Source: Lingula anatina (lineage: Eukaryota > Animalia > Brachiopoda). From it: DNA of 64,000 nt. The notes under the pieces are model-generated. The model did no database searches. It was not told the DNA's origin and was given only the letters and a program-made list of their open reading frames with translations. Location: the NCBI GenBank assembly GCA_051362555.1, contig CM120645.1, positions 4,216,001 to 4,280,000 on the forward strand, given 5' to 3'. The position numbers and the translations under genes are program-made. Positions 13,501 to 38,652 of this stretch are shown here, piece by piece (position 1 is the first letter of the stretch; every line of letters begins with the position of its first letter).

Positions 13501-15626
13501 TAAGGGACTAGCTAGTCTGCAGGTCAAATGTGGCTGACCCACTTGGAAACTTCCCCATGGGATATCTATTAGCAGATTAGACGACAAGCTTTGTAGTGGG
13601 TCGCCATATTTGACCCTCGGACTAGCTAGCCCCCTAATCTGAATGGGGCCTATTCCAAGGGTGGGTATAATGAACTTGAATTCAGGCCTTGTTTTAAATT
13701 AAATATACTATACTTGTTTTAAATTAAATTTACTCAGCTTTTTGCTCTTAGTTTTCCTTGTTTTTTATGTGATAATTTGTGACAATTTGCAAATTGCTTT
13801 TGGTATATCATTTTATACTGCAGTAAGTGATACTGACATTTATGTTGATGTTATGATGTTTTAGAAGTGCAACTCAACACAGCGGATCTCTCCGAAGACA
13901 AATACCCAACAAAAAAATGTTGCCAACGTCATTTTTATTATGGGTTCAAGGAGAGTATGGATGAAGTGGCAACGTTTTTGGTGGAGTGTCAGGGTTCCAG
14001 CCCAGAAGATATGCTCTACCAAGGCATTATAAAACATATGGAAAGGGCAAGCCAGAAATATTACCCAGGTAAAAGAAAAAAAAATGCACTGATACCCTGA
14101 ACCCACTGTTTCTCAATGATTATGCAGAATTCTTTACACCCTCCTTACCTTATTATATTATGGTTATTTTCTTCAATGAAATAATTCATCCTTATGGGCA
14201 TTATTTTCAGTGTCTGAGTCATAGTTTATATAAGCCATGGCTCTGTTGACTACTAGTCATGATTTCTGACATTTGCTGAGGAAATGGTGATCCATGTTGA
14301 CAAGTTTCACAAAGTTCTCTTTAAATTTCTTATATTTGTACAAGGACTGGATAAAGATGTTCCTATTTTTCTCACAGAAGTTAGTCAGAGTTTTTAAAAA
14401 CCAGTAAAAAATGACTGGAGTCCTTATTTTACTGTGGAGGTTATGCGGCATGGCTTTAATACTGTCAATATGGAAGGCTGCATGAGTGTTAAAAACTTTT
14501 TGTGGAAAAAGATATTATTCAGCTTTTAAACTATGATCTGATTTTTAGATTTAAATTGAGCATTGCTTGAAACTCGTGCTTTATGCTAGCTATGGTGAAC
14601 ATTTTCCATAATTTCAAGGGACAGATGCACTTATACCAATTAATTCCAATTCTTTTAGGCAACTACAGCAGCATCCCACAAGAGCCACCAGCAATGTGGA
14701 AACCACAAGATTCCATGGAAAGCAGAAATGAAGACGAGATGCAGATGTCCTCGTCGGGCATTGGAATGACAGATCACAGTAGCACACAAGAAAACTCCCC
14801 CACAGAAGTCTCGGATTTGAGAAGCAGCAGTGGCGCTGAGATCAAAGATGATGGTTTGAAAAGCCTCCTATCGAATTTGCCAAACAGTGAGGAAAAAAAT
14901 ACAGAATCTACGACTACTGTTACTGAAATGAAGAATGATGACATTTGTGCTGGGATGGATGAGTCTGTGGAAGGAGAGTACCTTGAAAATGGGGAAATGC
15001 CGTCCCCTATCGAGGAACCTACCGACCAGCAGTGCAGTTTGGACAGCAATGGCGACAAGGTGTACAAATTCAAAAATATCATAAAACTGAGATTCACAGA
15101 GGACATGAAAAGTGGGCATCGCTACAGTAAAACTGGCACTTCGAGTTCGTCCAACAGCTCCAAGGAGGAGAACGACAGCGAGATGTTTCAGCTGATGGGG
15201 AACCAGTTAAACTCCTATTGTGGAAGCTCGTCCTCCACAAACTATCCAAACTCTAGAGACAGCTCCACCAATGGGTACAGCTCCAATGGGAATGGGTACA
15301 GCTCTCAAGGAAGTAGTGGCAGCGTGGGGCCCTCCCCGCACAAACAGCACTCCCACAGCCACAACAGTCACGTGTCGAAAAAACAAGCCAATAAAGACTA
15401 TATGGAGAGAGATATGAACGTCCCAGGTTTTGCCATGCACCCCTCAGCTACCCATTACATCCCAATTATGGTCCATTTGTCCTATTTGTCCCCCTTTTTG
15501 CAGCATTCTGAAGTGGAAAGCGTGCATCAGATTTTTCACCCAATCAGCATTCCTGTCAGGCTTGGAGGGCCTGTCATACCCCCACCTCTTGTTTCGCTGG
15601 AGGGCAAACGAGCCAGTCATAATTGA
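2175..15626 (+). CDS. cwo: clockwork orange (bHLH-Orange circadian transcriptional repressor), about 507 aa, 6 coding exons
   Basis: Exons 2175-2242, 10880-10958, 12325-12426, 13347-13449, 13865-14068 and 14659-15626 join in frame with GT-AG sites. The b[56 protein letters not shown] matches CWO. Orange domain: [24 protein letters not shown]-typical C-terminal blocks: [11 protein letters not shown] and [15 protein letters not shown]...HPISIPVRL. Exons 1-2 are less certain than 3-6. Confidence 0.9.
3188..3270. repeat. (TG)n compound microsatellite
   Basis: Direct inspection. Confidence 0.95.
3914..4050. mobile_element. Palindromic MITE family A, copy 1 (other copies at 16881-17033 and 30441-30592)
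   Basis: Ends CAGGGCCC..AAAGCATCG / ATGCTTTTGAGTTACGGGGCCCAG form a fold-back. Three dispersed copies are present in the window. Confidence 0.8.
4274..4489. mobile_element. Tourist/PIF-Harbinger-like MITE family B, copy 1
   Basis: Imperfect TIRs GGGTGCATTCCCATAGAT... / ...ATCTCTGGGAATGGGGTC. A highly similar copy at 26958-27171 is flanked by TTA...TTA. Confidence 0.85.
5504..5555. repeat. (TTTA)n microsatellite
   Basis: Direct inspection. Confidence 0.95.
7677..8033. mobile_element. Harbinger-like MITE (family C-related), sharing its left arm with 63630-63760
   Basis: GCATTC...AGCCAGGCTTTACAAA...AAAAATGGCGGACGTACATGAAAGAAAAACCG recurs at 63630 onward. The right arm TTCATGTAGGTCTGCCATATT...TTCTGAAT is the inverted counterpart. 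Confidence 0.7.
10437..10508. repeat. (TA)n microsatellite
   Basis: Direct inspection. Confidence 0.95.
11139..11307. mobile_element. Harbinger-like MITE family C, diverged inverted copy
   Basis: GGCCGCATTCAGAA...GGTCAAATATGG / CCATATTTGACCCTC...TGAATGCAGCC. The interior is the reverse complement of 13487-13650. Confidence 0.75.
11408..11693. mobile_element. Degenerate fold-back MITE
   Basis: GGGTGCTTTCTCAGTGAAACTATCATAC / GTATGATTGCTTCACTGTGAACG..CCC, with inner arms GATTAACAGATTAAC..CCTCCTC / GAGGAGG..GTTAATCAGTTAATC. Confidence 0.65.
12325..12426 (+). CDS. cwo: cwo exon 3 (basic region and helix 1 of the bHLH)
   Basis: ttttcag|GAT CCC ATG...AAA CAA|gtaagt encodes [34 protein letters not shown]. 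Confidence 0.92.
12802..13070. mobile_element. Harbinger-like MITE (long fold-back) with a TTA target-site duplication
   Basis: TTA|GAGCCTATTCAGAA...GGTCAAATATGGTGGACCCTA / TAGGGTCCGCCATATTTGATC...TTCTGAATGGGCTC|TTA. Confidence 0.85.
13347..13449 (+). CDS. cwo: cwo exon 4 (loop and helix 2 of the bHLH)
   Basis: ctctag|CAA GGT...CCA G|gtatgt encodes [25 protein letters not shown]. Confidence 0.92.
13487..13650. mobile_element. Harbinger-like MITE family C
   Basis: TIR GGCCCCATTCAGA / TCTGAATGGGGCC flanked by TAT...TAT; close copy at 33680-33859. Confidence 0.85.
13865..14068 (+). CDS. cwo: cwo exon 5 (Orange domain)
   Basis: ttttag|AA GTG...CCA G|gtaaaa; overlaps ORF 13867-14100. Confidence 0.88.
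14659..15626 (+). CDS. cwo: cwo last coding exon (Ser-rich region and CWO C-terminal motifs)
   Basis: tcttttag|GC AAC... lies within ORF 14583-15626; TGA at 15624-15626. Confidence 0.9.
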
Positions 15627-19801: not shown

Positions 19802-22800
19802 TCAGAATTCCCTGTAACATAAAAAATCAAGATTAAAGAGACTGTAGGCACAGTAGTATCTTGTTGTACAGAATATTAATGAAATATGTGACTGAAAAAG
19901 CTTTCTCAACATTCATTATTGGCTCTCAACTGTTGCTTGAATGTATTCTAATTTTTTAAAGGCTACTTTTTTGCCTTAATCAAATAAATGATGACGAAAT
20001 TATGTATTTCTTACATTTTCACCTAGGCTAAGCATGAATATTGAACCCAGGCAGTAGATTCATTACCACATTAGTAAGACACAATGTAATATTTCAATGG
20101 GACTGGGGTTACGTCTTTGATCTAGGTACTGAAGTGCTCAGTATGGTGCACTCAAACAATCATGAGTAGCAAAGCTTTAAAAGCCAAAGACATTTATCCA
20201 TTAATTCCTTTTCGTGATTAACCTTTGGGTTAGAGACGAATTTTGACATTAAACAGGGTGCATATTGATTTTTGTCTTTATTACAGCACATTTCATTTTA
20301 TTTAAAGAAAAAATCAATTTCCCATGTTAACATAATGGATGGGTCAAAAAAGGAAATTTCATTTTTTATTAAGCATCTTCATTAAAAAAACAACTGATGT
20401 TTTGTCTATAAGCTAACCTGTATCCACGATGTTGCGTGGACACCATGGAACCGGCCAAAGAATCTTCTTCTGAATCTGTCTCATATACCGGATTATCAAA
20501 CTTACTTGATGTCAGCTTTGCTGTTGATTCTGAAAAAAAAAATGTACAAGTCTTTTTCTACACTGACACATGTAACAGTGTTATATAAGCTACACTTACA
20601 AATATACAAACTCTGCATCACTTGTCCCTTTATATTTCAAATTATTGTTTATCTTTCTCATTACATGCAGTTCCAGGCTATCAAGTATATAGGAGGGGGT
20701 ATATATTATCTATTTATTAGTAATTCATTTTTCAACTGGTTTATTTATTGCATGACACCAATGTTTACTACTTTTCTATAGCTTTAAATTGATTGATTGC
20801 TTGGTTCCTATATGACTACTGTACTTACCTCTTGTCGGTAGTTTAAATTCCCATCCAACCCACTTTAAGAAGATGCCTATCAGTATTGACAAAACAACAA
20901 TGCCACCAATCACTGAGCCCACTATAGCTAAAGTTTTATTTGACCATGCCAGCCTAGTATGGAGAAAAAAAAAACAGTTGCTTAAATTGTAATATTGCCA
21001 GCTTTTAGAGTGTTTTATTCTGACAAGAAAAAAAAAATTTCTGTAGTACTAAATATTTCACCCTCTTACATAATATAAATAGCTAGTTACCCTTACATAG
21101 ATATGTAAAGCAACTTCTTGGCATCATGAATTTTTTCAAAGATGGAACTTCACTTGGAAGCAAGGAACTTGATATAGAAATGATCCTTTAAGATTAGAAA
21201 ACTGCTGATGACGCTGCAATTTTTGATGGAAGTTACTTTTTATCTTATTTCATCTTCACCACAAAACCCCACCAATGGTCCTTTCAATTTCATGGGAAAA
21301 AGTCAACAAATATTTAAAAATAGAATCGTGTGTGTGTGTGTGTGTGTTAGCGAGAGAGAGAGAGAGAGGGGGTGGGGGAGGAGAGAGGCAGAGATATTGT
21401 ATGGTTTTTATTCTAAGAAATATAAAAAAAACAATAATAATATTTAAAAAATTTGTACAAATAATTGATTAACTGATAAACATGTACATACCATTCATCA
21501 TTTAAACCTGCACCATTCTCTTCTGTTGTCATGTTTACTGGGCTGCCAGTAGTTCCCTGCTGAAGAGCACCTGCAATACGTACATTTGATCTCAAAATTA
21601 TTCATTTTAATAAATCAAGCTTAAACTCATCCCCTGACATATTTACAACCTCGACAAATTAGAGTCAAATGCTAAATCTTAATCAGTGCCCTCAACACTG
21701 GAGAATGTTAATTAAAATTTATTAACATGTTTGTATTTTTGTTTGAAATTGCTTAGCCTAAAGCAACTTTGTTTTTTTTACAAGTGTTGTAAAGGAGATG
21801 ATTACTCAGTCTAAATTATAACACAGTTGTGAAATTCCTTAAATCAAAACTAATAAGAATTTGAAATCTTTATCGTATTTGTTAAAATCCATAAATAAGA
21901 CTTTGAATTATTGTATACTATGATCCTAGCAAAAATGTGAAAAAATAAATTCTTATCAAATGAATGAATGCAGAAAACTGTAACTGATCTCAAACTATTA
22001 TAATTTTGCCGTCCTTTACTCTACGAAAAAGGCAGAAGAGGGGGAGGTGGTGGGGCATTGTGGGACATGTGTCCCTTAGCTTTGTTGGTACCCCTTCTCC
22101 CTCCCTCCCTCCCTCCCTCCCTCCCAAAAACAGTTAAAATAATAACAAAATTAGACAAACCCACACCATTGTAATACCTGTGACCTGCATATTTGAGAAA
22201 TAACGGCTTTGGCTAGGATTTTAGATACAATTAGCACAATTAAGATGCGCGTTAATTTAAACCAGATGTTCCTCTGTTTTGCAAAAACAAAACAGGATGT
22301 TCAGTTTTATGCCATAGGAAACACTTAACAGTTTATCTGATACTGTTATGAAAGGCTGTTCTAGCTTGGAGTTTGGAGAGGTGGGAGCTGCCTCCTAATA
22401 ATGTACCACCAGCACTTGGGAAATAATATCTAACCATAATGGTTAAAAAATGAGATAGCAGTACACACACACCTGTACCATGGGGATCCATTATCTTTTT
22501 TTTTTTTTAACTTTAATCTACTTTGATTATGAAGGAGAAAACTCTGAGTTAAACAGTATAAGCAGTGGTAAAAAGTACAAGAAAATTGTAGAAGTGATTG
22601 CAATTAAGCACCTTACCTTAGAAGTCACAGCTAATTTGTTTATGCTATGAACATTTTGATTCTCAAGATGCTGTCAACTGAAAGTTTTAGGACCCTTGAT
22701 ACAATCTTTGATGATATAAAAATTAGCTTGTATATATCCTGTGGGAGTTTTAACATTATCTTTTCTGTTATTTATTTTTAATTGTTTATTTCAACTAACC

Positions 22801-25800
22801 TCAGGAGGGCCATGGGGAAGAGAATTATTATTGTATTAACCATGTTTGTTTTCACAATAAATAAATAAGCAAAATAAGAAATGCAAGCAACATAGAACAA
22901 AAAGTAATGCAAAACCTGTCATTTCTGCCTGAAAATGCGTTGTAGCCTGCCCACCACCAGAAAAACCACCAGCCGCTGTGAGCCCATCATGGGACACCTG
23001 GGTACCATAGCCTGTAGGCTGGGTGATTGCTGCCTTTGTGGGTGACACAGATGGGGATTCGGGTGACTTTGAAGCAGGAGAGGCACCAGAAGGCAAATTA
23101 CCAGCTGTAGAACCTGGTGCAATGGGAGGAGTTGGGGTTTTATCATAAGGTGTAGAAACTGGTGTAGGACCGGGTTTAATAGGTAGGGGTGGGACTTTAT
23201 GAGAAGGCAAGGAAACTGGTGTAGGACCGGGTTTAGTAGGTAGGGGTGGGACTTTATGAGAAGGCAAGGAAACTGGTGTAGGACCAGGTTTAGTAGGTAG
23301 GGGTGGGACTTTATGAGAAGGCAAGGAAACTGGTGTAGGACCAGGTTTAGTAGGTAGGGGTGGGACTTTATGAGAAGGCAAGGAAATGGGTGTAGGACCG
23401 GGTTTTGTTGGTAGGGGTGGGACTTTATGAGAAGGCAAGGAAACGGGTGTAGGACCGGGTTTTGTTGGTAGGGGTGGCACTTTATGAGATGGTGAAGAAA
23501 CTGGTGTAGGACCTAGTTTGGTAAGAGTGGGTAATTTATCAAGCGGTTTGGAAATGCTTGTGGAAGCCATGCTGCTGGGAGAAGGGGGTATGGCATAAGT
23601 AGTTGATGCTGTAGACCTTGGTATGGTTTGGGTGGGTGTTAATATCTGTTTTGGTGTTGGTGGAGAAGGAGTATTAGCTGGAGTTGTTGACAGACCTGGC
23701 TTTGGAGGGGTAGGACTACCTGTTTGGTTGGTAGAGACTCCTGGTCTGAGGGTAGGGGCTCCTGGTTTGAGGGTAGAGGCCCCTGGTCTGAGGGTAGGGA
23801 CTCCTGGTTTGAGGGTAGAGGCCCCTGGTCTGAGGGTAGGAACTCCTGGTGAAGGTGCTCTGGAGGGCCTAAGTGTGGGTGTAGGTGTGGGTGACCTGGT
23901 GGTCAGAATTTTGGGTGTAGGTTGTGGTGGGGATACTGTAAAGTTAGCTTCTGTACTTGGTACACAAACAGGATATCTCAGGTGGCTTGTCCAAATACAG
24001 CTGCTCATGGCTGTGCAAGCTTCTTGGCCTTGTCTAAAAAAAAATGTTAGTCTTTTAAATCAGATTTCTGATTTTCTAGTTAATGCTACACCAATCTTTT
24101 TCTTAAAGAAATGGGTGAATAATGCACATGAAAACACAAAATGCAAAAGTACTAAGTTACTTTATTCTTTCTTTCTTTTTTGTGTCTGCAAGCATGGATG
24201 ACATGTTTTGTGTCTGCAACCATGGATGACAATAATTAAAATCTTGAATTTGACTGCACTGTTGGTCAGTTTTTAACTTCATTCTGTACCTGGGTCCATC
24301 AACCTTTAATTGCCCCCTTGTCATGAAAGTACCCCTCCCTCAATATAAAAGTGAAAGGAGGCAAATGATTGGAAACTTAAAGCTGAACAATTTTTTCATC
24401 CCAGTTATACATGATATAGTAAAATTCCCTTCAGTGAGTTTTTTTTCATATTTTTACCCCTCCCCAAAAGCCAAATCCTGGATCCAGCAGGGCACCTGTT
24501 TGTGTAGAGGTGTTACCATTTTAAGCTACTTACACTTCAGCACAAGACCTGGGACATGGTGGGACACCAGGTACGGCCACTGTTGGTTTCACGTCAATAG
24601 TCTTTGACCTGCTTGTTACTGAATTCAAGACAGAGCAACCAAAATGCAAGTTTTAATATACATATCACAAGGAGAAACTTGTACATTTTATTTTTAAAAA
24701 TCTATGGCATGCTTCCGTAAATTTAAAGTTATGTTAAACTTAAAAATCTAAATAACTTAGAGAGCATTATATTTTATTTATATTCTTAATCACAGCTTTA
24801 TACAGGAACTTTAAGACAATATACCTGGACAAAGAGAAGTCAAACTTGTGATTCCATCAGAATCTGAGCACAAAGATGCACTTCCGCTCTCCTTACAAAG
24901 AAGCTCAGAAGAACAGCACTGAAAATATTCTTTGTTTTACTTTTAGAAGAACAAATGTATTTCAAAGAAAAAAATTTATATATGATAAACATGAATTTTG
25001 TAAGAACAGACAAACAATACTCTCTTGCAGCACCATGAACTTGTTTGAAATCTTAGTATTCAATATATTTAACAATTTTGCCTAAGGAGACTAGAAAGTT
25101 TGGCTGACTTTCAATTTTCCCATTGTCTTCTGTCTTGTAATTGGCTATGTAATAAAACCAGAAAATCTCATATTTTCACACTGATAATGTACACAGAGGA
25201 AGGTGGGAGGAAGGGAGGGAGGAAGGAAGGAATTAAAGAAGGAATAACAACATAAACACTCCAATAAACAAACAAATACAATACAAATACCTCCTTAGTC
25301 TCCCTCTGCTTAGGAGAGGGCGGACATGTTGAATTGCCTAAAACCACCAGCAGGTACATGTTTGTGTCAAGTATTCTCTGCAGAACAAACTGTTGGCAGC
25401 CCCCATTGACCTGGTACAGACTGCTGGTGTTCAGTGCTAACTGGTAGGAAGGACCAGAACTGACTGGAAAACAGCATTCCTTGGCCTGTGAAAGGGAATG
25501 CAAGAACCTTTACATCATCTGAAAATTTATCATTTTAATTGCACAGAAAAACAATATTCAAGAAAAAGAGATGTTGAATGGTTACCTATGTAAACATTTC
25601 AATCGTATGACTTTCATAAGTGAATTATTCACATGCACATAATTCTGATGAATCAGACCCTAATAATATTTTCAGGATATTTGAAAAATGGAATAGAATA
25701 ATTAAGTCAGATTTTGTTGATGTTGATGTTGATAAATCAATACATTTATAAAAAGAAGTGGGATGTCTTGGATGAGAACTGCACTCTCTGAGCACTAATA

Positions 25801-26545
25801 CGTAAATTCAAATATATATTCACATATAAGAATAAATAACATCACAATGCTGTATTTTAAAACTTAATTCACCTTCAGATACCCATAATTTAACAAGGTA
25901 TCTGCCACGACCGGATAGGCATCTGTCAAATGTTGTGTCTTGTTACTGTTGTCACGATTACCAATAATTATATATCTGAAAAAAAATACATAATAGTTCT
26001 GATATTGTAATATCTAAATAATTTTGATACAAAACTTTTGAATTACATGTATAGGTTATCAAAATGAGATGTATTTTTATTTGAGGGCAAACAATTCAAA
26101 TGTGCATGTATCAATCAATAAAATTATACATCATGTAATACTGCTCACAAATTACCTTAAAACACCTTTCCAATCAAGATTTTTTAATTCCACCTTTTTG
26201 ACCTTACCCAACTCCCCCCCCCCCCCCCCAGGACTTACCCTCGGTTGTCCAGCAGATGGCAAGTTATGTTTTGATCCAAGCAAAGCCCAACCTGAAACCA
26301 ATATTGAAATCAATTCATTTCTTAATTGGTTGTTCCATATCTGACATGTACAGGAAGGTAGGGGTTCTTAATAACTGAAATCACTGGCCTGTCATTTAGA
26401 ATATATCAAATCAACTTAATAAAAAAAAGAATAAAACATCAAATCTAAGTGCAAGGATGTATCGAGCAACAACTTGTGCGCAGGAGTAAATTGCTTTTTT
26501 CCTGTGTAAAATGAATATTGTGAGATACATCCCTTTTAAAGTACC

Positions 26546-26591
<46 letters not shown>

Positions 26592-29500
26592 GAGAAAGAG
26601 GAAGAAGAGGATCGATCCTGTAAGCTAACCTTCTCCAGCAGGAGTGACTGGAGTAAATGAACACTGACATCAGCTCCAACCACAGCACTTACTGGGTCAA
26701 GCCGAGAATGGCGGGAAATACCACTTCTACAAAGTGAAATGTAAAATTATAAGAACTGTACAATGACTGTAACATAAGACTTTGGTTGTGCTTTATTTAG
26801 ACAAATATTCTCCACCTTCAACAGATTCAGTGCCAAAGTGACCAATCCTTTAACAAGTCCGCATACACTATTTTGGACTGTCATTTATTTCAATAAGGTC
26901 CATTATAGCCACAATATAATACTTAGAGATATAACTTCCTTCAGAATATTTCTCTTAGGGTGCATTCCCATAGATTTGAGATCGATCTATCCCCATGGGG
27001 AGTCTCACTAGATTACTATCAGATAATCTGGCTTTAATGTCCATCCCGCCTACTACAAGCTGTAAGGGGGTAATTAACTTTCGTGCCCGCTCGGCTGACA
27101 GCTATTTAGCCTGAACCCCCAGGGAGTTAGGTCAATCTAGTTGGATCGATCTAATCTCTGGGAATGGGGTCTTAAACCCATAAGCAAAATAAATAAATAA
27201 AATAAAATATAATAAATGATAATTACTGATTTAAAAGCAAGTATTTGACAAATGTGTATTCATTATGACAAAAGACAAACAAACCTCTCTTCATAAATGG
27301 CCTTGCTGACAGAAAGCAACCTAGATCTGTCAGTGGGAGGTCCTATTAAACTTGGTTCTGGGGACACCACAGTGATCTGTGAGAGTCTTGCAGCATTTCT
27401 GTACCACTGCTGTTCTCTGGGGTCAAAGCCGCCATCTAATAACTGGCCAGGGTACAGGCGAGCCACACCATTTCTAGTGCCGAGGTATCTAAGAGAAAAT
27501 ACCAGACTGGATTTAAATAATGAAAGAATGATTTTGGTTAATGTAGAAATGTAGAAATTGAAAAGTTGAAAATTTCCTCTACTATGATTCACACTACAGG
27601 TTTGCTTTCAGTTAGTGTAGAAATTGAAAAGTTAAACAAGGCAGCAAAGCTGTCAAATGTACAGACAAAAAACAGGAAATAACTATGCACAAAATAGGCT
27701 ACTGTCAATTCTGATGCAAAAGTACATTATGTTAAACTGCAAATTCAACATCAAATTTTAATTATGCTCAACAGGTAATACCAATGTAAGTAAAATGTGT
27801 AACAAGTTCACACTTTGAAAATGTATAACTTCCAGAAAAAGAAGCCAATTAGACTGCTTTTCCAACTCTGCATTTTAGTCCTGTATTTCTTTTTTTTCTT
27901 TTTCTTTTTTGAAAGTTTGGCAATCATAAGTAACATGGTTTTCCCATAATGGTCATCATGGCAGCAGCACCCAAAATTGTGTTTTCTTCTATTCTGATGC
28001 CATATTACATAATGGTTAACAGCATAATGACCGTTAATTTTTAATAATACAATATACGTATCATGGATTTTCAGAAAATGTGACTATCATGGGTCTTCAA
28101 GCCCATGGAACTTCAAAGTCACACCTTGAAAATATGTGAAAAATTAAATTTTCACAAAAAAAAAAAAAAAAAAAAAAAAAACAAAAAAAAAACGTTTAAC
28201 TTGCAGTAAGAATTACCAAACAGACTGCATTGCCTACTGAAGCTGTATTTTAGTCCCATGTTTCTTTCCTGTAAGTTTGAGAACAGTAAGTGACATTTTT
28301 TTTTAATGTTCATCAAGGGAGCAGTGCCCAAAATAGTTTTTTTTTTTCAAATTTTGATGCAATATTACATAATATTTAACAGCATAATGACCATCAATTT
28401 TAATAATAAAATATCAGTATTATGGATATTCAGAAAATGTGACTAGCAAAGGTCTTCAGGCCCATGGAACTTCAAAGTCACAACTTGAAAATGCCAAAAT
28501 GGAAACAAGACAGCAATGTTCTGAAATTTTTTTCCCAGTTTTAACAATTTCTAACATAAAACAAAATTAACAGTTTACTACAGTTTTTATATGATCAACT
28601 AAGAAAATTGATGAGATGGGAAAAATATTAATAGAGCAGCGTTAAATGTCCAATTTCTTCCATTCTGAGATTCTGAACATAGTGAATGATTGAATCTGAC
28701 AAACTGCAATGATATGAGTTTATTTCCATTTTTTAAACTTTATTACACAATACACGATAACAAGTTTACCATCATTTTTACATAATCAAGTAATGATGTT
28801 GTAAAGATGCAGGAAATGCCAAACAAACACTTTTACGTATCTTATTAATTAAAAATTGAAACTGTTAACATGCCTAAAAATTTAATCTGAGGAAATGTGA
28901 AAAAACAGCATAACTTTAATATAATGGCCCGATTATGCTGATTTTTGAACTCAACTTGCGTTTTAGCAAAAATGACCACTCCTGTGAGTTTAATGACAAT
29001 TGGCCTGTCTGTTTTTCGTATATTGTGTTTACAGTGTTGCATATATGCTGAAAAATGAAAAAACAGCATAACTACCAAAGTAGTGGCCCTATCATGCCGA
29101 TTTTCGAACTTGACCTGTGTTATAGTAAGATCGATTACTCCTGTGAGTTTCATGACAACAGGCCTATCGATTTTCCTTGAAATGTGTTTACAGTGTTGCA
29201 TATATGCTAAAAAGTGAAAAAATAGCATAACTTCCTCAATAATGGCCTGATCATGCTGATTTTCGAACTTGACCTGCATTTTATGAATATTCATCAGCTC
29301 TGTAAATATAAAGCCAAAAAGTAAAACTGCCTTCCACTTATCGTGTTTACAAGGAAAGTGCACGGCGCCGGCGACAGTGACGGCGACAGTGACGGCGACG
29401 ACGACAGATGCAGGTGATGGCAATATGTACAGACACATCTGTACTTATTTACTGTACTGTTTGAGAACAGTAAGTGACATGGTTTTTCTTAAATGGTCAT

Positions 29501-32500
29501 CATGGGAGCAGTGCCCAAAATAGATTTTTTCAGATTTTGATGCAATATTACATAATGTTTAACAGCATAATGACCATCAATTTTTAATAATAAAATATTA
29601 GTATCATGGATATTCAGAAAATGTGACTAGCAAAGGTCTTCAGGCCCATGGAACTTCAAAGTCACAACTTGAAAATGCCAAAATGTAAACAAAGACAGCA
29701 CTGTTCTGAAATGGTTTTTTTTTTTTCATTTTTAACAATTTTTTTAACATAAAACAAAATAAACAGTTTACTGCCATTTTTATACGATCAACTAAGAAAA
29801 TTGATGAGATGGGAAAAATATCAACAGAGCAGTGTTAAATGTCCAATTTCTTCCATTCTGAGATTCTGAACATAGTGAATGATTGAATCTGACAAACTGC
29901 AATGATATGAGTTTATTTCCATTTTTTAAACTTTATTACACAATACACGATAACAAGTTTACCATCATTTTTACAAAATCAACTAACAATGTTGTAAAGA
30001 TGCAGGAAATGTTAAACAAACACTTTTACGTATCTTATTAGTTTAATAATGAGACTGTTAACATGCCTAAGAATTGAATCTGAGGAAATGTGAAAAATAT
30101 GCTGAAAAGTGAAAAAACAGCATAACTTCTACAATAATGGCCCGATCATGCTGATTTTCGAACTTGACCTGCGTTTTATGAATATTCATCAGCTCTGTAA
30201 ATATAAAGCCAAAAAGTAAAACTGCCCTCCACTTATCGTGTTTACAAGGAAAGTGCACGGCGCCGGCATCGCCATCGCCATCGGCATCGCCATCGGCGAC
30301 GACAGACGCAGGTGATGGCAATATGTACAGACACATCTGTGTCTGTACATAAAAATATTCTTCAAAATGATTATTCTTGAATGATTCTTCAACACTATTA
30401 CACAGATCAACTTCCATAAGAAAAACATTTCTGGTTAGATCAAGGCCCCGTAACTCTAAAGCATCGCGCATTGCGACCAAGTGCAAGTGTCTCAATTCCA
30501 CACCTCACCCATACTCGCCCCATATGGGAGTTATGGAATTGAGACTCTTGCGCTGAGTCGCAACGTGCAATGCTTGTGAGTTACGGGGTTGGCCAATTCT
30601 GGCTGAACACAGGTGTACCAACCTCTGGACAGGTAACTGGTCATGCTCCCGCCAGGTGCTAACCAGTTCATCAGATCTGTAGGTATCAACTAAGATAGCC
30701 TTGGCAGTGGTGGGGTCTGAAAAACAAGAAAGATTTAGAAGTTTTAAGAAGAAAAATTGCTTCATTCATGAAAAGGAATTTAGTGTTTATTAAGCCGTAG
30801 ATCATGTACCATGACTTCAATTAAATTAAACTTATCATTTTGTAATTAAAAGTTATATTTCCATAAAATATAAAATTTATAATAATAAATGCTATTCCTC
30901 ATCAATCACATTTATTTTTACAGATCTGTGCTGGTATTAGGAATTTCACTGGGTAACTTATCAGCATAGGTGATACCCTATTTTTTTTTTGTTTTTCCAA
31001 TTTCTGGCTGTGAAATATGCATACCTCTCAGAAAAGTGCCATTTCGTCCTGTCCTTAAAAATGTCTGCACAAATTCTGCATGTGTGCGCGATTCTTTCCT
31101 CCATGGATAAAAAGGGTCGCGAAAAACATTTGGGGACAACTGTAAGAAAATGGAAACTTTGTCAAATCAAATACATCTCTGAAAATGGGGATAATAAATT
31201 ATAATGTCATTCACCAAAATGCTTTTTTGGGAGGGCAACAAACATGAAATCTTTATTCATGCTTCTTGGAAGAGCCATGTTGCTTATGGTCTTGGGAATT
31301 GAAGTGCATTATTTTGATAAACATTTCATTGTAACTAATTTAAATGTCTCAAAACTGCTCATTTAAACTCTTAATTCAACCCCTTAGTGGTTAATATTCA
31401 TCAACAGTCCTACCAGCTGTTATTTCTAAACGTCAAATTGAATTGCATAAGGAAAAAATGAATCTATGGTTTGAGGTGAAAGTTATTCACTCAAGCACAT
31501 GTTAGTACATGTGCATTCATGTCCTTACCTTAATTACAGATTGATGTTTTGCTACTGGTATGCCTGCACTGTTACACAAAGTTGGGTCTCTGCCCATGTT
31601 ATCTAATATGTCATAGCGATAATAATAGGCCTCTGGTTTTGGCTGGTAGTGATACTGTCAATAAACAAGTATTCATCATCATTTTAGTTGGGATACTCAA
31701 AAAAAAAAAAAAAAACTGATGCTTATTGTTATAAATTACTTTTCAGGAGCAATGAATCTATTTAACAATTAATCTATTGATTTAAAAATTCTCCTGTGCT
31801 GATGAATTATGTTGTGCACTAATCATGTATAATTCAATTTAAAACAGCGCAACTTTACAAAATTTCATATTTTATGTACTGCAACTTTTTTCTCATTGTG
31901 TTATAAACAAATGATGGAATTGCTTCAGATTTAAACTGGACAAATGTTGTTCATCTTAAACAAAAAGCAGCATAATATTATCCACATACATCGTTATAGT
32001 ATCTTCGGGTGTCACCATCTACCAAAACAAGGATGATTGCAAAAGGTGATTTTTCCAAAGGTGATATTGAAAACAAAGCTCGTTCTGAAATCAGTTCTTC
32101 ACGGACATCATCTGGTACATGTCTTGTGGCCTTAAATATAATCAAAATCCTGAATAATTTCTATCTACTATTATGTATTTTTGACCCACTGACTATCTAA
32201 GCACATGTGCATAGTTTATGCAAGGGGAAACTAGAGACCTACGCAATTTACAAATTATTAACACATTTTAGATTAAGTGTGAAATTGTATAACAGCAAAA
32301 TAGTACACATGTAAGCTGAAAGAAATTGTCATCAAATCTCCAATCAAGTCTGATAGGTTAAAATGTCTTTTCCAAAAGAAGTATCTTGAAATGAAATCCT
32401 CCGGCCATCATTAAATCATTTACCTTTCCAGTGACATTAATCCTGTTATGTCCTCTATAAAGGTCTTGCAATAAACTCTCAGGTAATTGAGGCTCTATAT

Positions 32501-35500
32501 CTGTCACATATAGGGTCGGTATCGCAGTAAGTAACTCAGAGGGTAATGGTAGTCTTGGGTGGGCAATTACATTCCCTTTATAATAAAAGACACAAATGTA
32601 GTTCATTTCAATGCACATGCACATTAATGCTAAAACAATTTAATGAATGAAATTAATCAATTAGTTAATTAGTTGAAGACAATCAGAAAGTAGAGGGTAC
32701 AGCCACTCTTCCTCTATTGGGTTACCCCTCTCACAATGTTCAAAGATGCATAAGCACAAAGAAATAAAATTCTTAGTAAACTTTATATGTATAAGTAAAT
32801 AAATAAAAATCTTAAGGCTAAACTGGATGATTCCCATAGTTAGGGGCAGCCATATCTTTAACATATGTTAATCAGGCATTATCATACCTGTTCTTCTGTC
32901 TACAACAAATGCATAACTTTTTGCACCAAGCTGACTGCCCAGCACTGGTCTGAACAAGGTTGCCACGGAAACATCGATGGCCACTACCCCTTTTGTGCCA
33001 TTCTCTGTAGAAAATGGTGCCCCAATGGTAAAGGTCATGCCTAGGAAAAGTGGAAACCCAGCAAATGAAAAAAGTAGCTATATACCACTACCAAGTCCAT
33101 TTCAATGGCAGTTTACAGTGGAAAAATGATTTTTAAATTATTAAATTACTTTAAATGGCCTTTTTTGGGCCTAATTTTAGGAGTGGAAATTAATACCTTG
33201 TCATTACAAAAACACTAGCTGTCATCAGGCTCACATAGCTAAAATATGATCAGATGCATACTTCTAACATGTATATATTCACTAAATGTCCTGTTCTGCA
33301 ATTCACAGGTTCTATAATGGATGTATTTTTGGGGTAAAAATGTAATTATCTGTTTCAAAGATTTCTCCATGCTCAGAGCAGCTATCAATTAATACAATTT
33401 TAAGGGTAATGTGCAGCTACTGAACAAGGCTATAATACACTGCCTTGCATTTTTCTTCACAGGAATTGTTCAGATTTTAGCAGTTTTAGTGCAATGCCCT
33501 TGCTACAACTAAAAAGTCTAAATTTACTGTTGGCTAAAGATCAAAGGTGTAAACATTTCAAACTTAAGTCTTTTAGAAAAGATTTCCAATTGTACTGATT
33601 CTAAACTCCATCTAAGTTTTTTCATGAGAGAGGCAAATAAAAAAGACTACAATAAAGTACGAATTGATAAAAAGTCATAGGCCCCATTCAGAAATCATGC
33701 AGGACTAACTAGTCTGAGGATCAAATGTGGCCGACCCACTTGAATACTTCCCCACAGGATATCTTTTCAGTGTCTATTAGCGGATTAAGATGACAAGCTT
33801 TGTAGTGGGTTGCCATATTTGACCCTCGGACTAGATAGTCCCCTATTCTGAATGGGGCCTTATGTGTTAAGATGCAAGCATTACCCACCTACAGAGGAAT
33901 CATAATGTGGTCCAAAGTAAATATAATCCTGTCCTGGTGGAAGAACACTGGGTGGCAAATATGTGTAATAATCTGCCAGGTTCTCATAAATATCAAGAAC
34001 TACTGTTTTGAGGCCTTTTGTTGCCAGACTGGATAATGTGCTGTTGTCTAAACCATATAGGAATAGATAGGCAGGGGTAGCCTGAAAATTTTGCATCTTT
34101 TGAAATTTGTGGTATCACTGGAAGCTAATTCACCATCAGGAAAAAATGCTTCATCTGAAAAGTGATGCCAATTCAAACTTTTGACCATTTTGAAGTCACT
34201 AAATAACTACAAATGAGTTAGTCACAGACAATAGGAGCACAGGGCCATATCCACAAAATGCTGTAACTTACAAATTCACATGAATAGTTAAAAACCATTG
34301 TAAGTTACAACCTTCGATATATACGTCCCATGACTTAAAATAATTAGTCTTCATTTTTTCATTTGAAACTACTGACTTACAAGTTGGTCTTGCCCTTGCT
34401 CCATTGCTTTCACAACCTCAGTGGCACCTTCTTCAATACCACTTGTGATGAAGAGCAGTGCATTTTGGTAAATTGGTAGTGACCCTTGCTAAAAGCAAAG
34501 AACAGAAGCGACAATGCTATTAATAATGTTGTTTTATTATTTTAAAGGTCTGCATTTGATAAATATTTGATATTTGATATTTGATAAATAGCAGGATATA
34601 TAGACTTTGTGGCATTCTTCAATTATACCTTAAGATAAAAACTTAAGTAAAACAGTTTTGAAATAGAAGGGCTGTGTACACATCAAATCGGGTAAGTAAA
34701 TCCTGCTCACTTCAAACCTGACAGATGTTTTGGTATTATACAAAAAGTAGCATACCAATATCTAGAAGAGATACTTTTGTTTTAAGTTAAAAAAAAAGGC
34801 AGTTTCTTTTTACCTAGGCTTTTATAAAAGTTAATAAAAATACTGTTAACTCTGCATAGATAGGGCACTTTGGTCCAAAATTTTGTTCCAGCTTATTTCA
34901 GCTAATGCCAAGGAAATCATCTGTTCCACAAGGGTTTTTTCAACTACCATGATAGTCTTGCAATAAGGTGACAAGGGAAGAAGAGTTGACTGTAAATTTG
35001 ATGAAACCTGAAAATCAGAGATTGCAGACCTTTATTTTTACTTACCTCAACTGTTGAACTTGTATTGAGAGCTTGAAAGGCTAAATTCACTGCCTCTGAA
35101 ACATCTGCAGACTTAACAACTTCTGAAAATAGCAATATATTGCACTTAATTTCATGTATTGGAAAACTATAACCAATCAAAGCAATTCATTCTATTCCAA
35201 ATGCTTTAAATAATCCATAATTTCAATTAGTCTATGGTGAAACTGGCTGGTTGAAGCCAAGATTAATGATCAACAGAACACCAGAGTAGTCTTTAAACAA
35301 ATTGTTCTTTATCTTGTTCTCCTTAACTTGAATATGGCACACTAAATAGAACCGAATGAGTAAAATTATGATCTTGATAGAAATAACCGCTTAACATATC
35401 ACTTACCTGGTAGACCATGAACATTTCTCAATTTGTTCTTTATAACATCAATGTTGTATCTGTTTGTTTCCAAAGTCTGGTTTCCACAACCATGTAGTGA

Positions 35501-38500
35501 TACCACATTTGTTCCATTGACTAAAAAAAGTGCCACCTAGAAAGGATAATTGAAAATTACTTTGTAACTAGACAGCAAAGCCAGCAAATATACAGACACC
35601 ATACAGGAAACAAGGCAGCAAAGCTGTTCAGACATTATGCAGAAAAAAAGTGCACAAAATAATGTTTTGGTAAATTTTGAAGCACTGTTACAAAATGCCT
35701 TAAAACAGCATAATCACTTTTACCCTCTTACATAATGAAGTACAGGTAACAAGTGATACAGTTCCATGAGATATAAAAGCCACTGAAAATGCCAATGTGT
35801 GAAAAATGAATATGAAAAAAGAAAAAAACAGAATAATTACAGTGAATGTAAACCAATCATGCCGTTTTTAGAAAGCAACCTACCTCTTCACCAAATAAAG
35901 CCACTCAGTAAATTTTAAGTAAAACAAAATACTGTTTTGAAGAAATGGGGCAAACGTGCAAACGCCACCACAGTTGTGCAAAAAAAAAAAAAAAAAAAAA
36001 TTGCTGTAAATGTAAACCATTCATGCTATATTTTAAAAGCAACCTGCCTCTTTGCCAAACAAAGCCACTCAGTTAATTTTAAGTAAGACAAAAAAAAGTT
36101 TGGCAGGTATAGGGTGAAAGTCATGTGATGGACAGCAGGATGGCAATGACATAGACAGACAGACCGATCAGAATATGTACATGCAGACACTATATATACA
36201 TTCAATATAAAAAATGCCTGGAAAATATACCCACTGAGATTGGTTGTACCAAGATAGATCAACCCAACTTGACTAGAAACACACTCACTAAGATTGGCCA
36301 TATCAAGTTAGATCAATCTTATTTCACTAGAAACAGGTCCACTGAGATGGGATTTGCCAAGTCAGGTCTTCACAGATACAAAAAAAATTATCTCAAAAAA
36401 ATTATGATGCAAATTCAAATTAGTTTATAAAGATGTATAATGATATCTGAATGAAAACAGTACATGGTATTGTTTTTTCCTTTTATGGATTCACCTTGTC
36501 AGCATCAAATAAAGTCTCCAACACATTTTCCAATGTGTTAATCACGGCTTCCCAAATTGTGATGTTAGCCACTGCAATCACAATGGCCATGTTCCGGTGC
36601 GCAGAACCAAAATGGGAGGCCGCTAGGAGACGTCTGAAAGAAATGTCATGACGGATTATGTTCTAATTAGGTGATAATTATTGGTTATACAACCAGGTTA
36701 TACAACACTTTTTTATGGAAGTGTTTATTGCACTTAAGAGTTTTACATTTCCCATATGACAAATGAAAAACCAAGTTTTGAATTCAAATATAAAATAAGA
36801 GAAAATTAAAAAACAAGGTAGCAATGCTGTCAAATGTACAGACATAAAGCAGGAAAAAATGTCCCATTTCAACACCTTTTCATATAGTTCAAAATAACCA
36901 ATTTACGTAGTATCCTTTTTATATAATCAACTTACAAATTGTTGAGATCAGAAAATATCAATAGAACAATTTTAAGTGTCCAATTTGTTCTATTCTGAGA
37001 TCCTGAACTAGTGAAAGATTGAATCTGACAAACTGCAATGTTATGAGCTAATTTTCATTTTTGACACTTTAATACACAATACACAATAACAGATTTACCA
37101 TTATTTTTATATAATCAACTAACCAAAATAGTTAAGATGCAAAAAAAAAAAAAAAAATGTCAAAAGAGCACATTTACACATGTAATTAGTTCAATAATTA
37201 TTCTGTTAACATGTCTAAGAATTGAATCTGGGGAAAAAAACACTTATATACAAAAAAAAAAAATAATAATAAAACAGCAAAATTAGCCATCATAGGATTT
37301 ATATAACAGGTTTATGCTGTCAATTTTAGCAGTCTGATATGACTCTAGTTAATGGGGGATGGGAACAGAGGGAGAGAATGCTTTTGAAAATTTTTCATTT
37401 TCTTTTCTTTTTTGAGGGTGGGGTGGGGTGGGGGTAGGGGGGTCAGGGCAGTCAAGTGGGGGTAGACAATTCTAAATGATTGTTTTGGCACATATCGTAA
37501 CTGCCAAATGATGTGAACTAACAGTTCAGATGAAAATGTCATTTGCTCACCTAGAAAACTCTGATGCCTGTTTGACAGAGGTATTCTGTTGTTGCCCTAT
37601 TGGAAACTGGTACAGGTCCTTTTCTTCTGTCACAATATAATGCCATGAGGCAGAGGATGAGTTCTCTACACTTTCCTGCAATAGACAAAAATATTTTAAA
37701 TAATTCACGCCATTCACACTACTTTAGTTTCAAAACCACTTGGAGGGCTATTTTAGCTCAAAAGAATTTTGTCAGAAAATTTTTGTCAGAAAAGTTTCAC
37801 CCACAGTTTCAAATTGAAATAAACATTGGGCCTTCAATTTAAAGTTTGAAAAGAAAGAGACTTTGCCAAATGTAAATTTTCCTCATATGAAACATTTAAG
37901 GCCCCAAACCCCCAGTGTATGACAATAAACAGTCCCCCTCATTTTTGTTTTTTTTTTCTTCTTAAATGTGTTCCTGTCTTACAAAACTAACTAAATAAAT
38001 AAAACTGTTGATAACAATGCTTACTGCTTTATTCAGAGTGGTAAAACACCTGAAATGAAAGAATATGCAGTCAAATATATATTTTTAAAAAACATGCCTA
38101 AAACTGAACAACTTCCAAACCTGAAAAATGAATGGTTCTTTACAATACCTTTAAGAAGTGTTCTTGCTCTTGGATAACAATGTCTATTTCCTGCTGTTTC
38201 CTGTTCAGCAAACAGGATTTCCAATGGATTCCTTGTCGAAATTTGGCACTATAAGACCATGGACCATTGAAAGTGGAACAGTCCTGAGCTGTGGGCATTT
38301 TATGCCGTTGTGTATGTGAACCTTCAAGTTGTTTTTTCAGCACATCCAAACTGTTTTCTACCAACAGAAGCTCCTTTCTTAGATCATTATGTAATTGATG
38401 TTGGAGTACATTCTTGGATTCCATAGGGATGTATTTCGTATTTTTTCCGGCATCATATATTTTTTGGAGCTTCTTTGCTCCCAGGACTTTTTCAAAGAAG

Positions 38501-38652
38501 TCAGCAAGGTCAGTTGAAAATAATGAAATTTGCTTGTCAATTTGAGTTTTGTTTAGTTGTAATGCCTTTCCTGGGCTAATTGTCAGAATAAACATAAAAA
38601 ACACCCACATTCTATATTTACCGGACTGTCCAGACATTATTGAACAATTCAT
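19802..38652 (-). CDS. Divergent CACHD1/alpha2delta-like VWA + double-Cache type I membrane protein with a mucin/extensin-like stalk and an NPxY tail, about 1430 aa, ~25 exons
   Basis: In-frame GT-AG exons (minus strand): 38149-38652 (signal peptide from ATG 38610), 37551-37675, 36495-36633, 35407-35536, 35046-35122, 34381-34488, 33889-34081, 32888-33040, 32424-32575, 31990-32130, 31529-31654, 31025-31139, 30623-30716, 27285-27488, 26630-26726, 26239-26291, 25873-25975, 25291-25485, 24825-24918, 24534-24618, 22916-24033, 21492-21570, 20829-20953, 20418-20529, and tentatively 19802-19811. Cache motifs GPHYDSSVGMTFTIGAPF..GVVAIDV, SYAFVVD..GNVIAHP, RYLGTRNGVARLYPG..FDPREQQWY and CHLLDNRGYII follow the CACHD1 order. 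TM: LAIVGSVIGGIVVLSILIGIFL. The start codon and last exon are uncertain. It is too divergent to assign the CACHD1 symbol. Confidence 0.8.
20418..20953 (-). CDS. TM exon (20829-20953) and cytoplasmic-tail exon (20418-20529) of the CACHD1-like gene
   Basis: WLAWSNKTLAIVGSVIGGIVVLSILIGIFLKWVGWEFKLPTR followed by ESTAKLTSSKFDNPVYETDSEEDSLAGSMVSTQHRGY, with phase-consistent splice sites. Confidence 0.75.
22916..24033 (-). CDS. Large Pro/Thr/Ser-rich stalk exon of the CACHD1-like gene
   Basis: ttttag|A CAA GGC... overlaps ORF 22836-24008. The Cys module CTAMSSCIW..PVC is followed by low-complexity repeats. Confidence 0.85.
23155..23525 (-). repeat. Coding 57-bp tandem repeat (~6.5 copies; 19-aa unit TKPGPTPVSLPSHKVPPLP)
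   Basis: GTAGGACC recurs every 57 bp in the core of the array (e.g. 23221, 23278, 23335); the units are nearly identical. Confidence 0.95.
23735..23850 (-). repeat. Coding 21-bp repeat with 42-bp higher order (PGVPTLR/PGASTLK)
   Basis: Alternating CCTGGTCTGAGGGTAGG and CCTGGTTTGAGGGTAGA units. Confidence 0.9.
26549..26588. repeat. (GA)n microsatellite
   Basis: Direct inspection. Confidence 0.95.
26958..27171. mobile_element. Tourist/PIF-Harbinger-like MITE family B, copy 2
   Basis: TTA|GGGTGCATTCCC...GGGAATGGGGTC|TTA; matches 4274-4489. Confidence 0.85.
27634..30355 (-). mobile_element. Helentron-associated non-autonomous element (HINE / pearl-type) with internal tandem core repeats, partly duplicated in tandem
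   Basis: Minus-strand 5' end: TTTTT + ATGTACAGACACA-GA-TGTGTCTGTACAT hairpin (30323-30350), then ATTGCCATCAC and a GC-rich microsatellite. Core repeats have a 159-bp period (near 28981 and 29140). The 3' end has subTIR TGTCTGTACAT + GACAGC-TTT-GCTGCC hairpin + TTGTT (27634-27667). 28277-29460 is repeated at 29461-30350. Confidence 0.8.
30441..30592. mobile_element. Palindromic MITE family A, copy 3
   Basis: CAAGGCCCCGTAACTCTAAAGCATCGCGCATTGCGAC / GTCGCAACGTGCAATGCTTGTGAGTTACGGGG. Confidence 0.8.
33680..33859. mobile_element. Harbinger-like MITE family C
   Basis: GGCCCCATTCAGAA / TTCTGAATGGGGCC; matches 13487-13650. Confidence 0.85.
35570..36205 (-). mobile_element. Decayed HINE-type element related to 27634-30355
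   Basis: 3'-end motif AAACAAGGCAGCAAAGCTGT (~35608), two ~165-bp cores (35841 and 36006), (GACA)n and a decayed ATGTACA hairpin near 36140-36205. Confidence 0.55.
36231..36365. repeat. 54-bp minisatellite, ~2.5 copies
   Basis: CCACTGAGAT-like starts at 36231, 36285 and 36339. Confidence 0.7.
36811..37231 (-). mobile_element. Partial HINE copy (3' end plus interior)
   Basis: AAACAAGGTAGCAATGCTGTCAAATGTACAGACA matches 27634-27667; 36940-37231 matches 28605-28892. Confidence 0.75.

What the first reader, a model, noticed from the sequence alone, without database searches (positions are those of the whole stretch)
19802..38652. A CACHD1/alpha2delta-type Cache-VWA head rebuilt as a stalked, probably endocytic receptor
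Seen: the 25-exon model gives signal peptide, Cache/VWA/Cache head, Cys-rich module, ~340-aa Pro/Thr/Lys repeat stalk, TM helix and a short tail with FDNPVY plus an acidic cluster. Known: alpha2delta and CACHD1 are calcium-channel or Wnt-receptor auxiliary proteins whose head sits close to the membrane, whereas an O-glycosylated stalk plus FDNPVY is the LDL-receptor layout. Inference: a bacterial-type small-molecule sensor fold has been repurposed as a ligand-capturing, scavenging or adhesion receptor projected far from the membrane. I do not recall this architecture being described. This is the best candidate for a novel system in the window.
Basis: partly seen in the sequence, partly recalled or inferred. 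Interest (0 to 1): 0.8.

Follow-up and report, generated by a model that had tools for sequence, protein, structure and literature searches.

The report
Stalked CACHD1-like receptor of shelled invertebrates
A lamp-shell (Lingula) gene is predicted to encode a relative of the channel and Wnt-receptor helper CACHD1 whose head lacks the usual amino-acid- and metal-binding residues and sits on a proline/threonine stalk with an LDL-receptor-type tail signal; a scallop protein is built the same way, so this is likely an undescribed invertebrate receptor branch that would catch cargo and pull it into the cell.

Summary
25 minus-strand exons, all AG/GT, give one 1443-aa frame: CACHD1-fold head, Cys-rich module, Pro/Thr/Ser stalk, one TM helix, 53-aa tail with FDNPVY plus acidic cluster. 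The gene is 98% identical (exon 1) to Lingula anatina XP_013380680.1, whose model has the same layout but a ~113-aa stalk from an earlier donor. Sparse RNA reads cover the long stalk and join head to stalk; no read joins stalk to TM. It is not CACHD1 itself (AU p=0.0005; Lingula has a separate CACHD1) and not unique: it groups (100/99) with bivalve and gastropod paralogues. Two of them share the stalk and a positionally matching tail (FDxxx[FY], then a terminal YxxPhi); strict FxNPxY is Lingula-only in my sample. Among 72 membrane-anchored relatives only those two have such a stalk. The MIDAS and both amino-acid-binding motifs are lost, so 'small-molecule sensor' is unsupported. Best reading: a macromolecule-binding receptor held off the surface and recycled by clathrin adaptors; ligand and tissue unknown. 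A new variant of a known family, not found in the papers searched; moderate interest.

The parts
38149..38652 (-). Exon 1: likely signal peptide and the two long N-terminal helices of the nested dCache head (aa 1-168)
   Evidence: 98% identical to XP_013380680.1; helices 35-57 and 80-112 in the model
33889..37675 (-). Exons 2-7 (37675-37551, 36633-36495, 35536-35407, 35122-35046, 34488-34381, 34081-33889): first dCache part and inserted VWA domain with MIDAS lost
31529..33040 (-). Exons 8-11 (33040-32888, 32575-32424, 32130-31990, 31654-31529): rest of first dCache
   Evidence: dCache_1 hit on exon 8, E=0.004; aligns to CACHD1 chain 8s7c
25291..31139 (-). Exons 12-18 (31139-31025, 30716-30623, 27488-27285, 26726-26630, 26291-26239, 25975-25873, 25485-25291): second dCache with degenerate amino-acid motif
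   Evidence: exons 16-17 are missing from the RefSeq model but present in paralogue P0002 and intact here
23960..24918 (-). Exons 19-20 (24918-24825, 24618-24534) and start of exon 21: Cys-rich module homologous to the C-terminal ectodomain region of CACHD1 (FZI region), first Cys cluster shortened
   Evidence: alignment with fish CACHD1 and relatives; joins 19-20 and 20-21 seen in reads
22916..24033 (-). Exon 21, long form: Pro/Thr/Ser/Lys stalk; alternative donor at 23720 gives the short RefSeq form
   Evidence: frame open over 293 codons, 0 of 2000 shuffles open; GC 0.50 against 0.33 in the intron; sense-strand reads in 4 of 4 runs
23730..23850 (-). 21-bp tandem repeat x5.8 (7-aa unit), in both stalk forms
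23155..23513 (-). 57-bp tandem repeat x6.3, 95% matches (19-aa Pro/Thr/Lys unit), long stalk only
22836..22915 (-). Read-through of the long-stalk donor: 18 hydrophobic residues, stop, then AATAAA at 22790 and 22776 (possible tail-less anchor isoform, or chance from a T-rich intron)
   Evidence: untested
21492..21570 (-). Exon 22: juxtamembrane end of stalk
   Evidence: 100% match to RefSeq model
20829..20953 (-). Exon 23: transmembrane helix (about 20931-20866)
   Evidence: hydropathy 2.7; helix 1045-1072 of P0001 model
20418..20529 (-). Exon 24: tail with FDNPVY (20500-20483) and acidic Ser/Thr cluster
19802..19811 (-). Exon 25: last codons and stop; completes a C-terminal YxxPhi motif across the last intron

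Best explanation
The gene encodes a predicted single-pass surface glycoprotein of a brachiopod-mollusc CACHD1-like subfamily that likely binds a protein or glycan ligand with its head, is likely held tens of nanometres off the membrane by an O-glycosylated stalk, and would be taken up and recycled through clathrin adaptors reading its tail. Shown: exon chain and frame, CACHD1 fold, loss of MIDAS and amino-acid-motif residues, stalk composition, tail motifs, the clade, low-level transcription. Inferred: the stalk-to-TM splice, glycosylation and extension of the stalk, macromolecular ligand, binding of Dab/ARH-type PTB adaptors to FDNPVY and of AP-2 to the terminal YxxPhi, and a role in uptake or clearance at an epithelial surface.
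For: Fold and family. Pockets lost: second-dCache motif Arg and third Tyr are absent in 7 of 7 stalked-clade rows shown, and MIDAS DxSxS is absent in the 6 that cover it; these residues are needed for amino-acid binding (PMC8915833 passages). CACHD1 binds proteins through its N-terminal Cache helices and FZI region (PMC7615972 passages), and both regions are kept here. Tail: FxNPxY is the ARH/Dab2 internalisation motif, and the Dab route works in an invertebrate (PMC3564534 passages); downstream acidic residues assist LDLR tyrosine signals (PMC2120116 abstract). FDxxx[FY] lies 22-25 aa from the TM, with YxxPhi in the last 12 aa, in the window protein, P0025 and P0031; outside the clade 1 of 55 and 7 of 55 tails do so. 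The two amphioxus members with short tails also end in YxxPhi.
Against: No ligand, tissue or uptake data. The two relatives have FDxxxF, not NPxY, so the PTB motif itself is not conserved; the Aplysia member P0144 has neither motif and only a 51-aa stalk. Whole-tail similarity is weak: P0031 ranks 1st (z 2.8) and P0025 4th (z 1.9) of 58, with non-clade tails in between. The FDxxx[FY] pattern was defined after seeing the three tails. Plain NPxY occurs in 6 of 72 relatives outside the clade. Expression in the 7 runs laid was very low (mean depth over the exons mostly 0-3), unlike a bulk scavenger in those samples, whose tissues are not known to me. No read joins stalk to TM.
Confidence: 0.5

Rival explanations
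1. Adhesion or glycocalyx protein: the head binds matrix, shell, mucus or a neighbouring cell, and the tail motifs serve polarised sorting or anchoring to PTB/FERM scaffolds rather than cargo uptake.
For: Sister members of the wider clade carry ZP and chitin-binding CBM14 domains and Thr-rich stretches, typical of apical matrix proteins (recalled). Five 'VWFA and cache' proteins occur in a coral skeletal proteome (bioRxiv 10.64898/2026.03.24.713908 passage; subfamily not known). LDLR tyrosine-plus-acidic signals also direct basolateral sorting.
Against: MIDAS, the usual adhesion site of VWA domains, is lost. No mention in the supplements searched for the Lingula genome paper; the lophotrochozoan skeleton proteome supplement has one CACHD1-annotated row that I did not assign to species or subfamily.
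Confidence: 0.25
2. A CACHD1-like regulator of Wnt receptors or calcium channels that acts at a distance (in trans, or as a decoy) and removes its partner by endocytosis.
For: FZI-like module and N-terminal helices retained; CACHD1 binds FZD and LRP6 and alters CaV2.2 endocytosis without an intact MIDAS (PMC6231325 passages).
Against: Only about 19% identity to fish CACHD1; grouping with CACHD1 rejected; Lingula keeps a canonical CACHD1; the first Cys cluster of the FZI region is shortened; the stalk would lift the head above membrane-proximal partners.
Confidence: 0.15
3. Model caveat: the long stalk belongs to a tail-less isoform ending in a hydrophobic (TM or GPI-type) anchor, while the FDNPVY tail goes with the short RefSeq stalk.
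For: Donor 22916 is the weakest of 24; the frame runs on to a hydrophobic end with AATAAA 50-60 nt past the stop; three X2 reads near 22929-22986 have no matching depth on exon 22; RefSeq uses 23720.
Against: GC falls from 0.50 in the long stalk to 0.33 in the intron below; T-rich intron sequence gives hydrophobic residues by chance; AATAAA is frequent in AT-rich introns.
Confidence: 0.2
4. Small-molecule (amino-acid) sensor or scavenger using the Cache pockets.
For: The head keeps the dCache fold, with Trp-Tyr and the final Asp of the second pocket and PHYD/Asp of the first.
Against: The carboxylate-binding Arg is missing from both pockets and the amino-binding Tyr from the second; R126A alone cuts PctA affinity 61-fold; the protein is absent from the AA-motif dataset.
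Confidence: 0.07

Closest known systems
CACHD1 (PDB 8s7c, 9eq6; fish XP_018609330.1 = P0088)
   Same: Nested double dCache with inserted VWA, Cys-rich C-terminal ectodomain region, type I TM, disrupted MIDAS; top hit by sequence and by fold.
   Different: Separate clade (AU p=0.0005); CACHD1 keeps the amino-acid motif in dCache 2, has about 30 aa between last Cys and TM and a 160-200-aa tail; here motif lost, 113-385-aa stalk, 53-aa tail with FDNPVY.
alpha2delta subunits (CACNA2D; PDB 7vfs, 5gjv)
   Same: Same head fold (TMq about 0.5).
   Different: Intact MIDAS and GPI anchor, amino-acid motif in dCache 1; none of these here. No alpha2delta sequence was identified among my hits, so none was in my trees.
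Unstudied stalked paralogues: Argopecten XP_069142408.1 (P0025), Mytilus californianus XP_052104921.1 (P0033), Aplysia XP_035825804.1 (P0144), Bulinus KAH9505014.1 (P0051), unnamed P0031 and P0026
   Same: One clade with the Lingula pair (100/99; 93/87 with P0144 on the C-terminal half); dead MIDAS and pockets; Pro/Thr-rich stretch after the Cys module where the record reaches it; two share the tail layout.
   Different: Only 20-28% identical; stalks 51-168 aa; FDxxxF in place of FDNPVY; three records are truncated before any TM.
LDL-receptor family
   Same: Layout only: O-linked-sugar-type stalk, TM, short tail with FxNPxY followed by acidic residues (motif function; identity of the hexapeptide with LDLR is recalled).
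   Different: No LA, EGF or YWTD repeats by Pfam; unrelated ectodomain; no atlas look-alike for the stalk-TM-tail part.

Membership tests
alpha2delta/CACHD1 superfamily (double dCache with VWA insert) | Nested double dCache with inserted VWA fold | tested here: met
   AF2 model of P0001, mean pLDDT 73; Foldseek top hits CACHD1 E=5e-43, alpha2delta E=3e-32
CACHD1 orthologues | Groups with vertebrate CACHD1 | tested here: not met
   CACHD1 clade 100/100 excludes it; AU p=0.0005
CACHD1 orthologues | Amino-acid motif intact in second dCache | tested here: not met
   Arg replaced by Gln, third Tyr lost
CACHD1 orthologues | Cys-rich FZI-type region before the TM | tested here: met
   aligned Cys pattern, first cluster shortened
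CACHD1 orthologues | Binds FZD/LRP6, modulates CaV | not testable with these tools
alpha2delta (CACNA2D) | Intact MIDAS DxSxS | tested here: not met
alpha2delta (CACNA2D) | Amino-acid motif in first dCache | tested here: not met
   N-terminal YxxxxRxWY absent
alpha2delta (CACNA2D) | GPI anchor, no cytoplasmic tail | tested here: not met
   TM plus 53-aa tail in both models; a read-through hydrophobic end is possible but unproven
LDL-receptor family | LA, EGF and YWTD ectodomain repeats | tested here: not met
   Pfam scan of P0001
LDL-receptor family | FxNPxY tail signal behind a Ser/Thr/Pro stalk and TM | tested here: met
   (works-like feature, not membership)
LDL-receptor family | Clathrin-mediated uptake and recycling | not testable with these tools
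   needs an internalisation assay

The most novel reading that the evidence does not exclude
An unrecognised endocytic receptor family, conserved from brachiopods to molluscs for over 500 million years, in which the CACHD1/alpha2delta head lost its metal and amino-acid sites, became a macromolecule-capture module on a mucin stalk, and converged on the LDL-receptor layout down to the FDNPVY-plus-acidic signal; its sister branches bolt the same head onto ZP and chitin-binding modules.
Probability: 0.3. Interest if true: 0.72.

Novelty: new variant of a known kind. Interest (0 to 1): 0.5.

Why it matters
The alpha2delta/CACHD1 head is known only as a membrane-proximal helper of calcium channels and Wnt receptors. 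Invertebrates carry many unexplained paralogues. If this branch is a stalked uptake or adhesion receptor, the gabapentin-target fold has a second life as a general ligand-capture module, and one group of those paralogues gets a testable function. [quoted passage not shown]

Tried and rejected
No whole genome is held, so paralogue loci and the canonical CACHD1 gene could not be inspected directly. Run search: no RNA holder listed; raw-read runs were added by species label. Word-based search with the head found only 3 proteins. Atlas search with the stalk-TM-tail part: no usable hit. Fold of the C-terminal module of sister protein P0172: pLDDT 37, too poor to search; a SEA-like fold is suggested by strand-helix order only and is not claimed. 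Supplement searches for CACHD1/cache in the Lingula genome paper and the amphioxus gut atlas found nothing; PMC6199404 is not held; bioRxiv supplements could not be seen and may list subfamily members. Earlier-findings look-ups by sequence and by eight words were empty; 'CACHD1' alone gave archaeal and viral cases. No complex was predicted (no partner sequence available). Rejected: separate gene for stalk/TM (head-stalk join in reads, RefSeq model, collinear relatives); pseudogene (intact frame, reads); CACHD1 orthologue; tail captured from an LDL-receptor gene (less likely, because two relatives have a positionally matching tail; not directly tested).
Full report
Gene model. The region 19802-38652 holds a minus-strand gene in an AT-rich animal genome. 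Splice candidates were listed by coordinate and 25 exons joined in a script: every intron has GT-AG ends, phases agree, and the 4332-nt frame gives 1443 aa with a single terminal stop. Exon 1 found a 98%-identical protein of Lingula anatina, XP_013380680.1 (P0001, 1122 aa), and an 80%-identical head-only paralogue, XP_013419896.1 (P0002). P0001 maps to the same exons and has the same order head, Cys-rich module, stalk, TM, FDNPVY tail. It differs in two ways: it skips exons 16-17, which P0002 and the window keep, and it leaves exon 21 at a donor at 23720, so its stalk is 113-117 aa instead of 381-385. The neighbours are an HCFC1-like gene and a probable bHLH-Orange gene.

Is the long stalk real? 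The part beyond 23720 is open for 293 codons in the right frame only (0 of 2000 shuffles open), has GC 0.50 against 0.33 in the intron below, and contains a 57-bp repeat x6.3. Sense-strand reads lie on it in 4 of 4 runs at depth 0-2, like the short part, with none in bins 22136-22813. The join 24033/24535 (Cys module to stalk) appears in 2 reads each of X1 and X3, and the exon 19-20 join as a 3-read loose end in X3 (my reading of its consensus). Many of these reads differ from the window by 5-12%, so they may come from the paralogue. No read joins stalk to exon 22 or the TM. The donor at 22916 scores lowest of the 24, and read-through would give a hydrophobic end followed by AATAAA. So the long stalk is transcribed, but its link to the tail is inferred.

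The head. By sequence the best solved relative is CACHD1 (8s7c, E=7e-24; no alpha2delta among 13 hits). An AF2 model of P0001 from a 46-row alignment (mean pLDDT 73; stalk and tail disordered; exons 16-17 absent) matches CACHD1 first (TMq 0.62) and alpha2delta next (about 0.5). The atlas returns CACHD1-like clusters at 0.96-0.97. Pfam sees dCache_1 but no VWA, because the VWA is degenerate: DxSxS and the later Asp are gone. The amino-acid motif defined in PMC8915833 (passages read) lacks its N-terminal half in dCache 1, and its Arg and third Tyr in dCache 2. Neither Lingula accession is in that paper's motif datasets, which list another Lingula protein, XP_013403576.1, in the CACHD1 column (supplement rows). 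The Cys-rich module aligns with the region that PMC7615972 (passages) calls the FZD-interaction domain, with its first Cys cluster shortened.

Relatives. A full HMMER search gave 190 hits at E<=0.001, of which the best 150 were listed; with 19 I held 166 proteins. 72 of them (P0001 excluded) had a head match reaching model position 800 and a predicted TM; the others were fragments, lacked a called TM or matched only the stalk repeats. Median distance from last Cys to TM is 21 aa; 2 of 72 have 100 aa or more at 40% or more Pro/Thr/Ser: Argopecten XP_069142408.1 (P0025) and unnamed P0031. A FastTree of 110 head alignments and an IQ-TREE of 52 chosen rows (LG+G4) place the Lingula pair with P0025, P0031, Mytilus P0033, Bulinus P0051 and P0026 (100/99), inside a clade (100/100) with Nematostella, Mytilus trossulus, another Lingula paralogue and amphioxus proteins that carry long extensions, including ZP and CBM14 domains. 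I named these groups after seeing the first tree; branches are long (Lingula stem 1.2), no mixture model was used and no alpha2delta row was present. Holding the Lingula pair with CACHD1 is rejected (28 rows, AU p=0.0005). The partial Aplysia protein P0144 joins the gastropod members. P0033 and P0026 end in a Pro/Thr-rich stretch without a TM, P0051 ends earlier. All seven stalked-clade rows have lost the pocket Arg.

The tail. Strict FxNPxY occurs in none of the 72 relatives; plain NPxY in 6, all outside the clade; 18 have PPxY/LPxY instead. The window protein, P0025 and P0031 align over TM and tail, with FDxxx[FY] 22-25 aa from the TM and YxxPhi in the last 12 aa; outside the clade 1 of 55 and 7 of 55 tails do so. 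Both short-tailed amphioxus proteins end in YxxPhi; P0144 has neither motif. Overall tail similarity is weak (z 2.8 and 1.9; ranks 1 and 4 of 58) and the pattern was chosen after inspection. This supports one gene from head to tail and an inherited sorting layout, while the PTB-type NPxY itself is so far Lingula-specific.

Mechanism. Most likely (0.5) the head binds a macromolecule through the surfaces CACHD1 uses for proteins, the stalk is O-glycosylated and extended (about 30 to 95 nm at 0.25 nm per residue, a recalled rule of thumb), and Dab/ARH-type adaptors and AP-2 take the receptor into coated pits (motif function from PMC3564534 passages, and the PMC2120116 abstract). Rivals are adhesion or glycocalyx function with sorting signals (0.25), a CACHD1-like regulator of Wnt receptors or channels acting at a distance (0.15; PMC6231325 passages), and small-molecule sensing (0.07). 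Independently, there is about a 0.2 chance that long stalk and tail belong to different isoforms.

Novelty. Seven full-text searches (CACHD1 with invertebrate, with Wnt receptors, with endocytosis terms, with evolution and mollusc; Lingula shell matrix; 'VWFA and cache' alone, 14 papers, and with mucin or gut terms) showed no description of stalked CACHD1-like proteins; I saw listings and abstract starts only, apart from the passages cited. PMC8915833 notes that invertebrates have variable numbers of CACHD1 paralogues with differential motif loss. The library lacks most subscription journals. Verdict: real gene, known superfamily, an apparently undescribed brachiopod-mollusc subfamily with an LDL-receptor-like layout; function untested. 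Interest 0.5.

Noticed in passing
window 45.3-62.5 kb, minus strand: Host cell factor 1 (HCFC1)-like gene: Kelch_HCF hits on three exons and an fn3 hit.
   Followed up: partly
window 13849-15623, plus strand: Probable bHLH-Orange gene: weak Hairy_orange hit (E=0.002) and a 351-codon last exon.
   Followed up: partly
window 27.6-30.4 kb (intron 13), 26.96-27.14 kb, 33.2-33.9 kb, 35.5-35.9 kb: Dispersed repeats with RNA depth up to several hundred, including 159-bp tandem units; the 27.6-30.4 kb reads are strongly one-stranded in two libraries.
   Followed up: no
window 21684-21909: Sense-strand reads inside intron 21 in X1 and X3, near an AATAAA at 21723; could be the 3' end of a tail-less isoform, retained intron or a repeat.
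   Followed up: no
proteins P0023, P0024, P0168 (amphioxus): CACHD1-like heads with intact MIDAS fused to ZP and, in P0023, chitin-binding CBM14 domains, in a gene cluster of paralogues.
   Followed up: partly
proteins P0094, P0102: Cache-VWA proteins with an N-terminal folate-receptor domain.
   Followed up: no
proteins P0023, P0037, P0169, P0172: A shared ~200-aa repeated module after the Cys-rich region with no Pfam hit; the low-confidence model has beta-alpha-beta-beta-alpha-beta order.
   Followed up: partly
18 of 72 membrane-anchored relatives: Many invertebrate CACHD1-like paralogues with intact pockets carry PPxY/LPxY tails, suggesting ubiquitin-ligase coupling in another branch.
   Followed up: no
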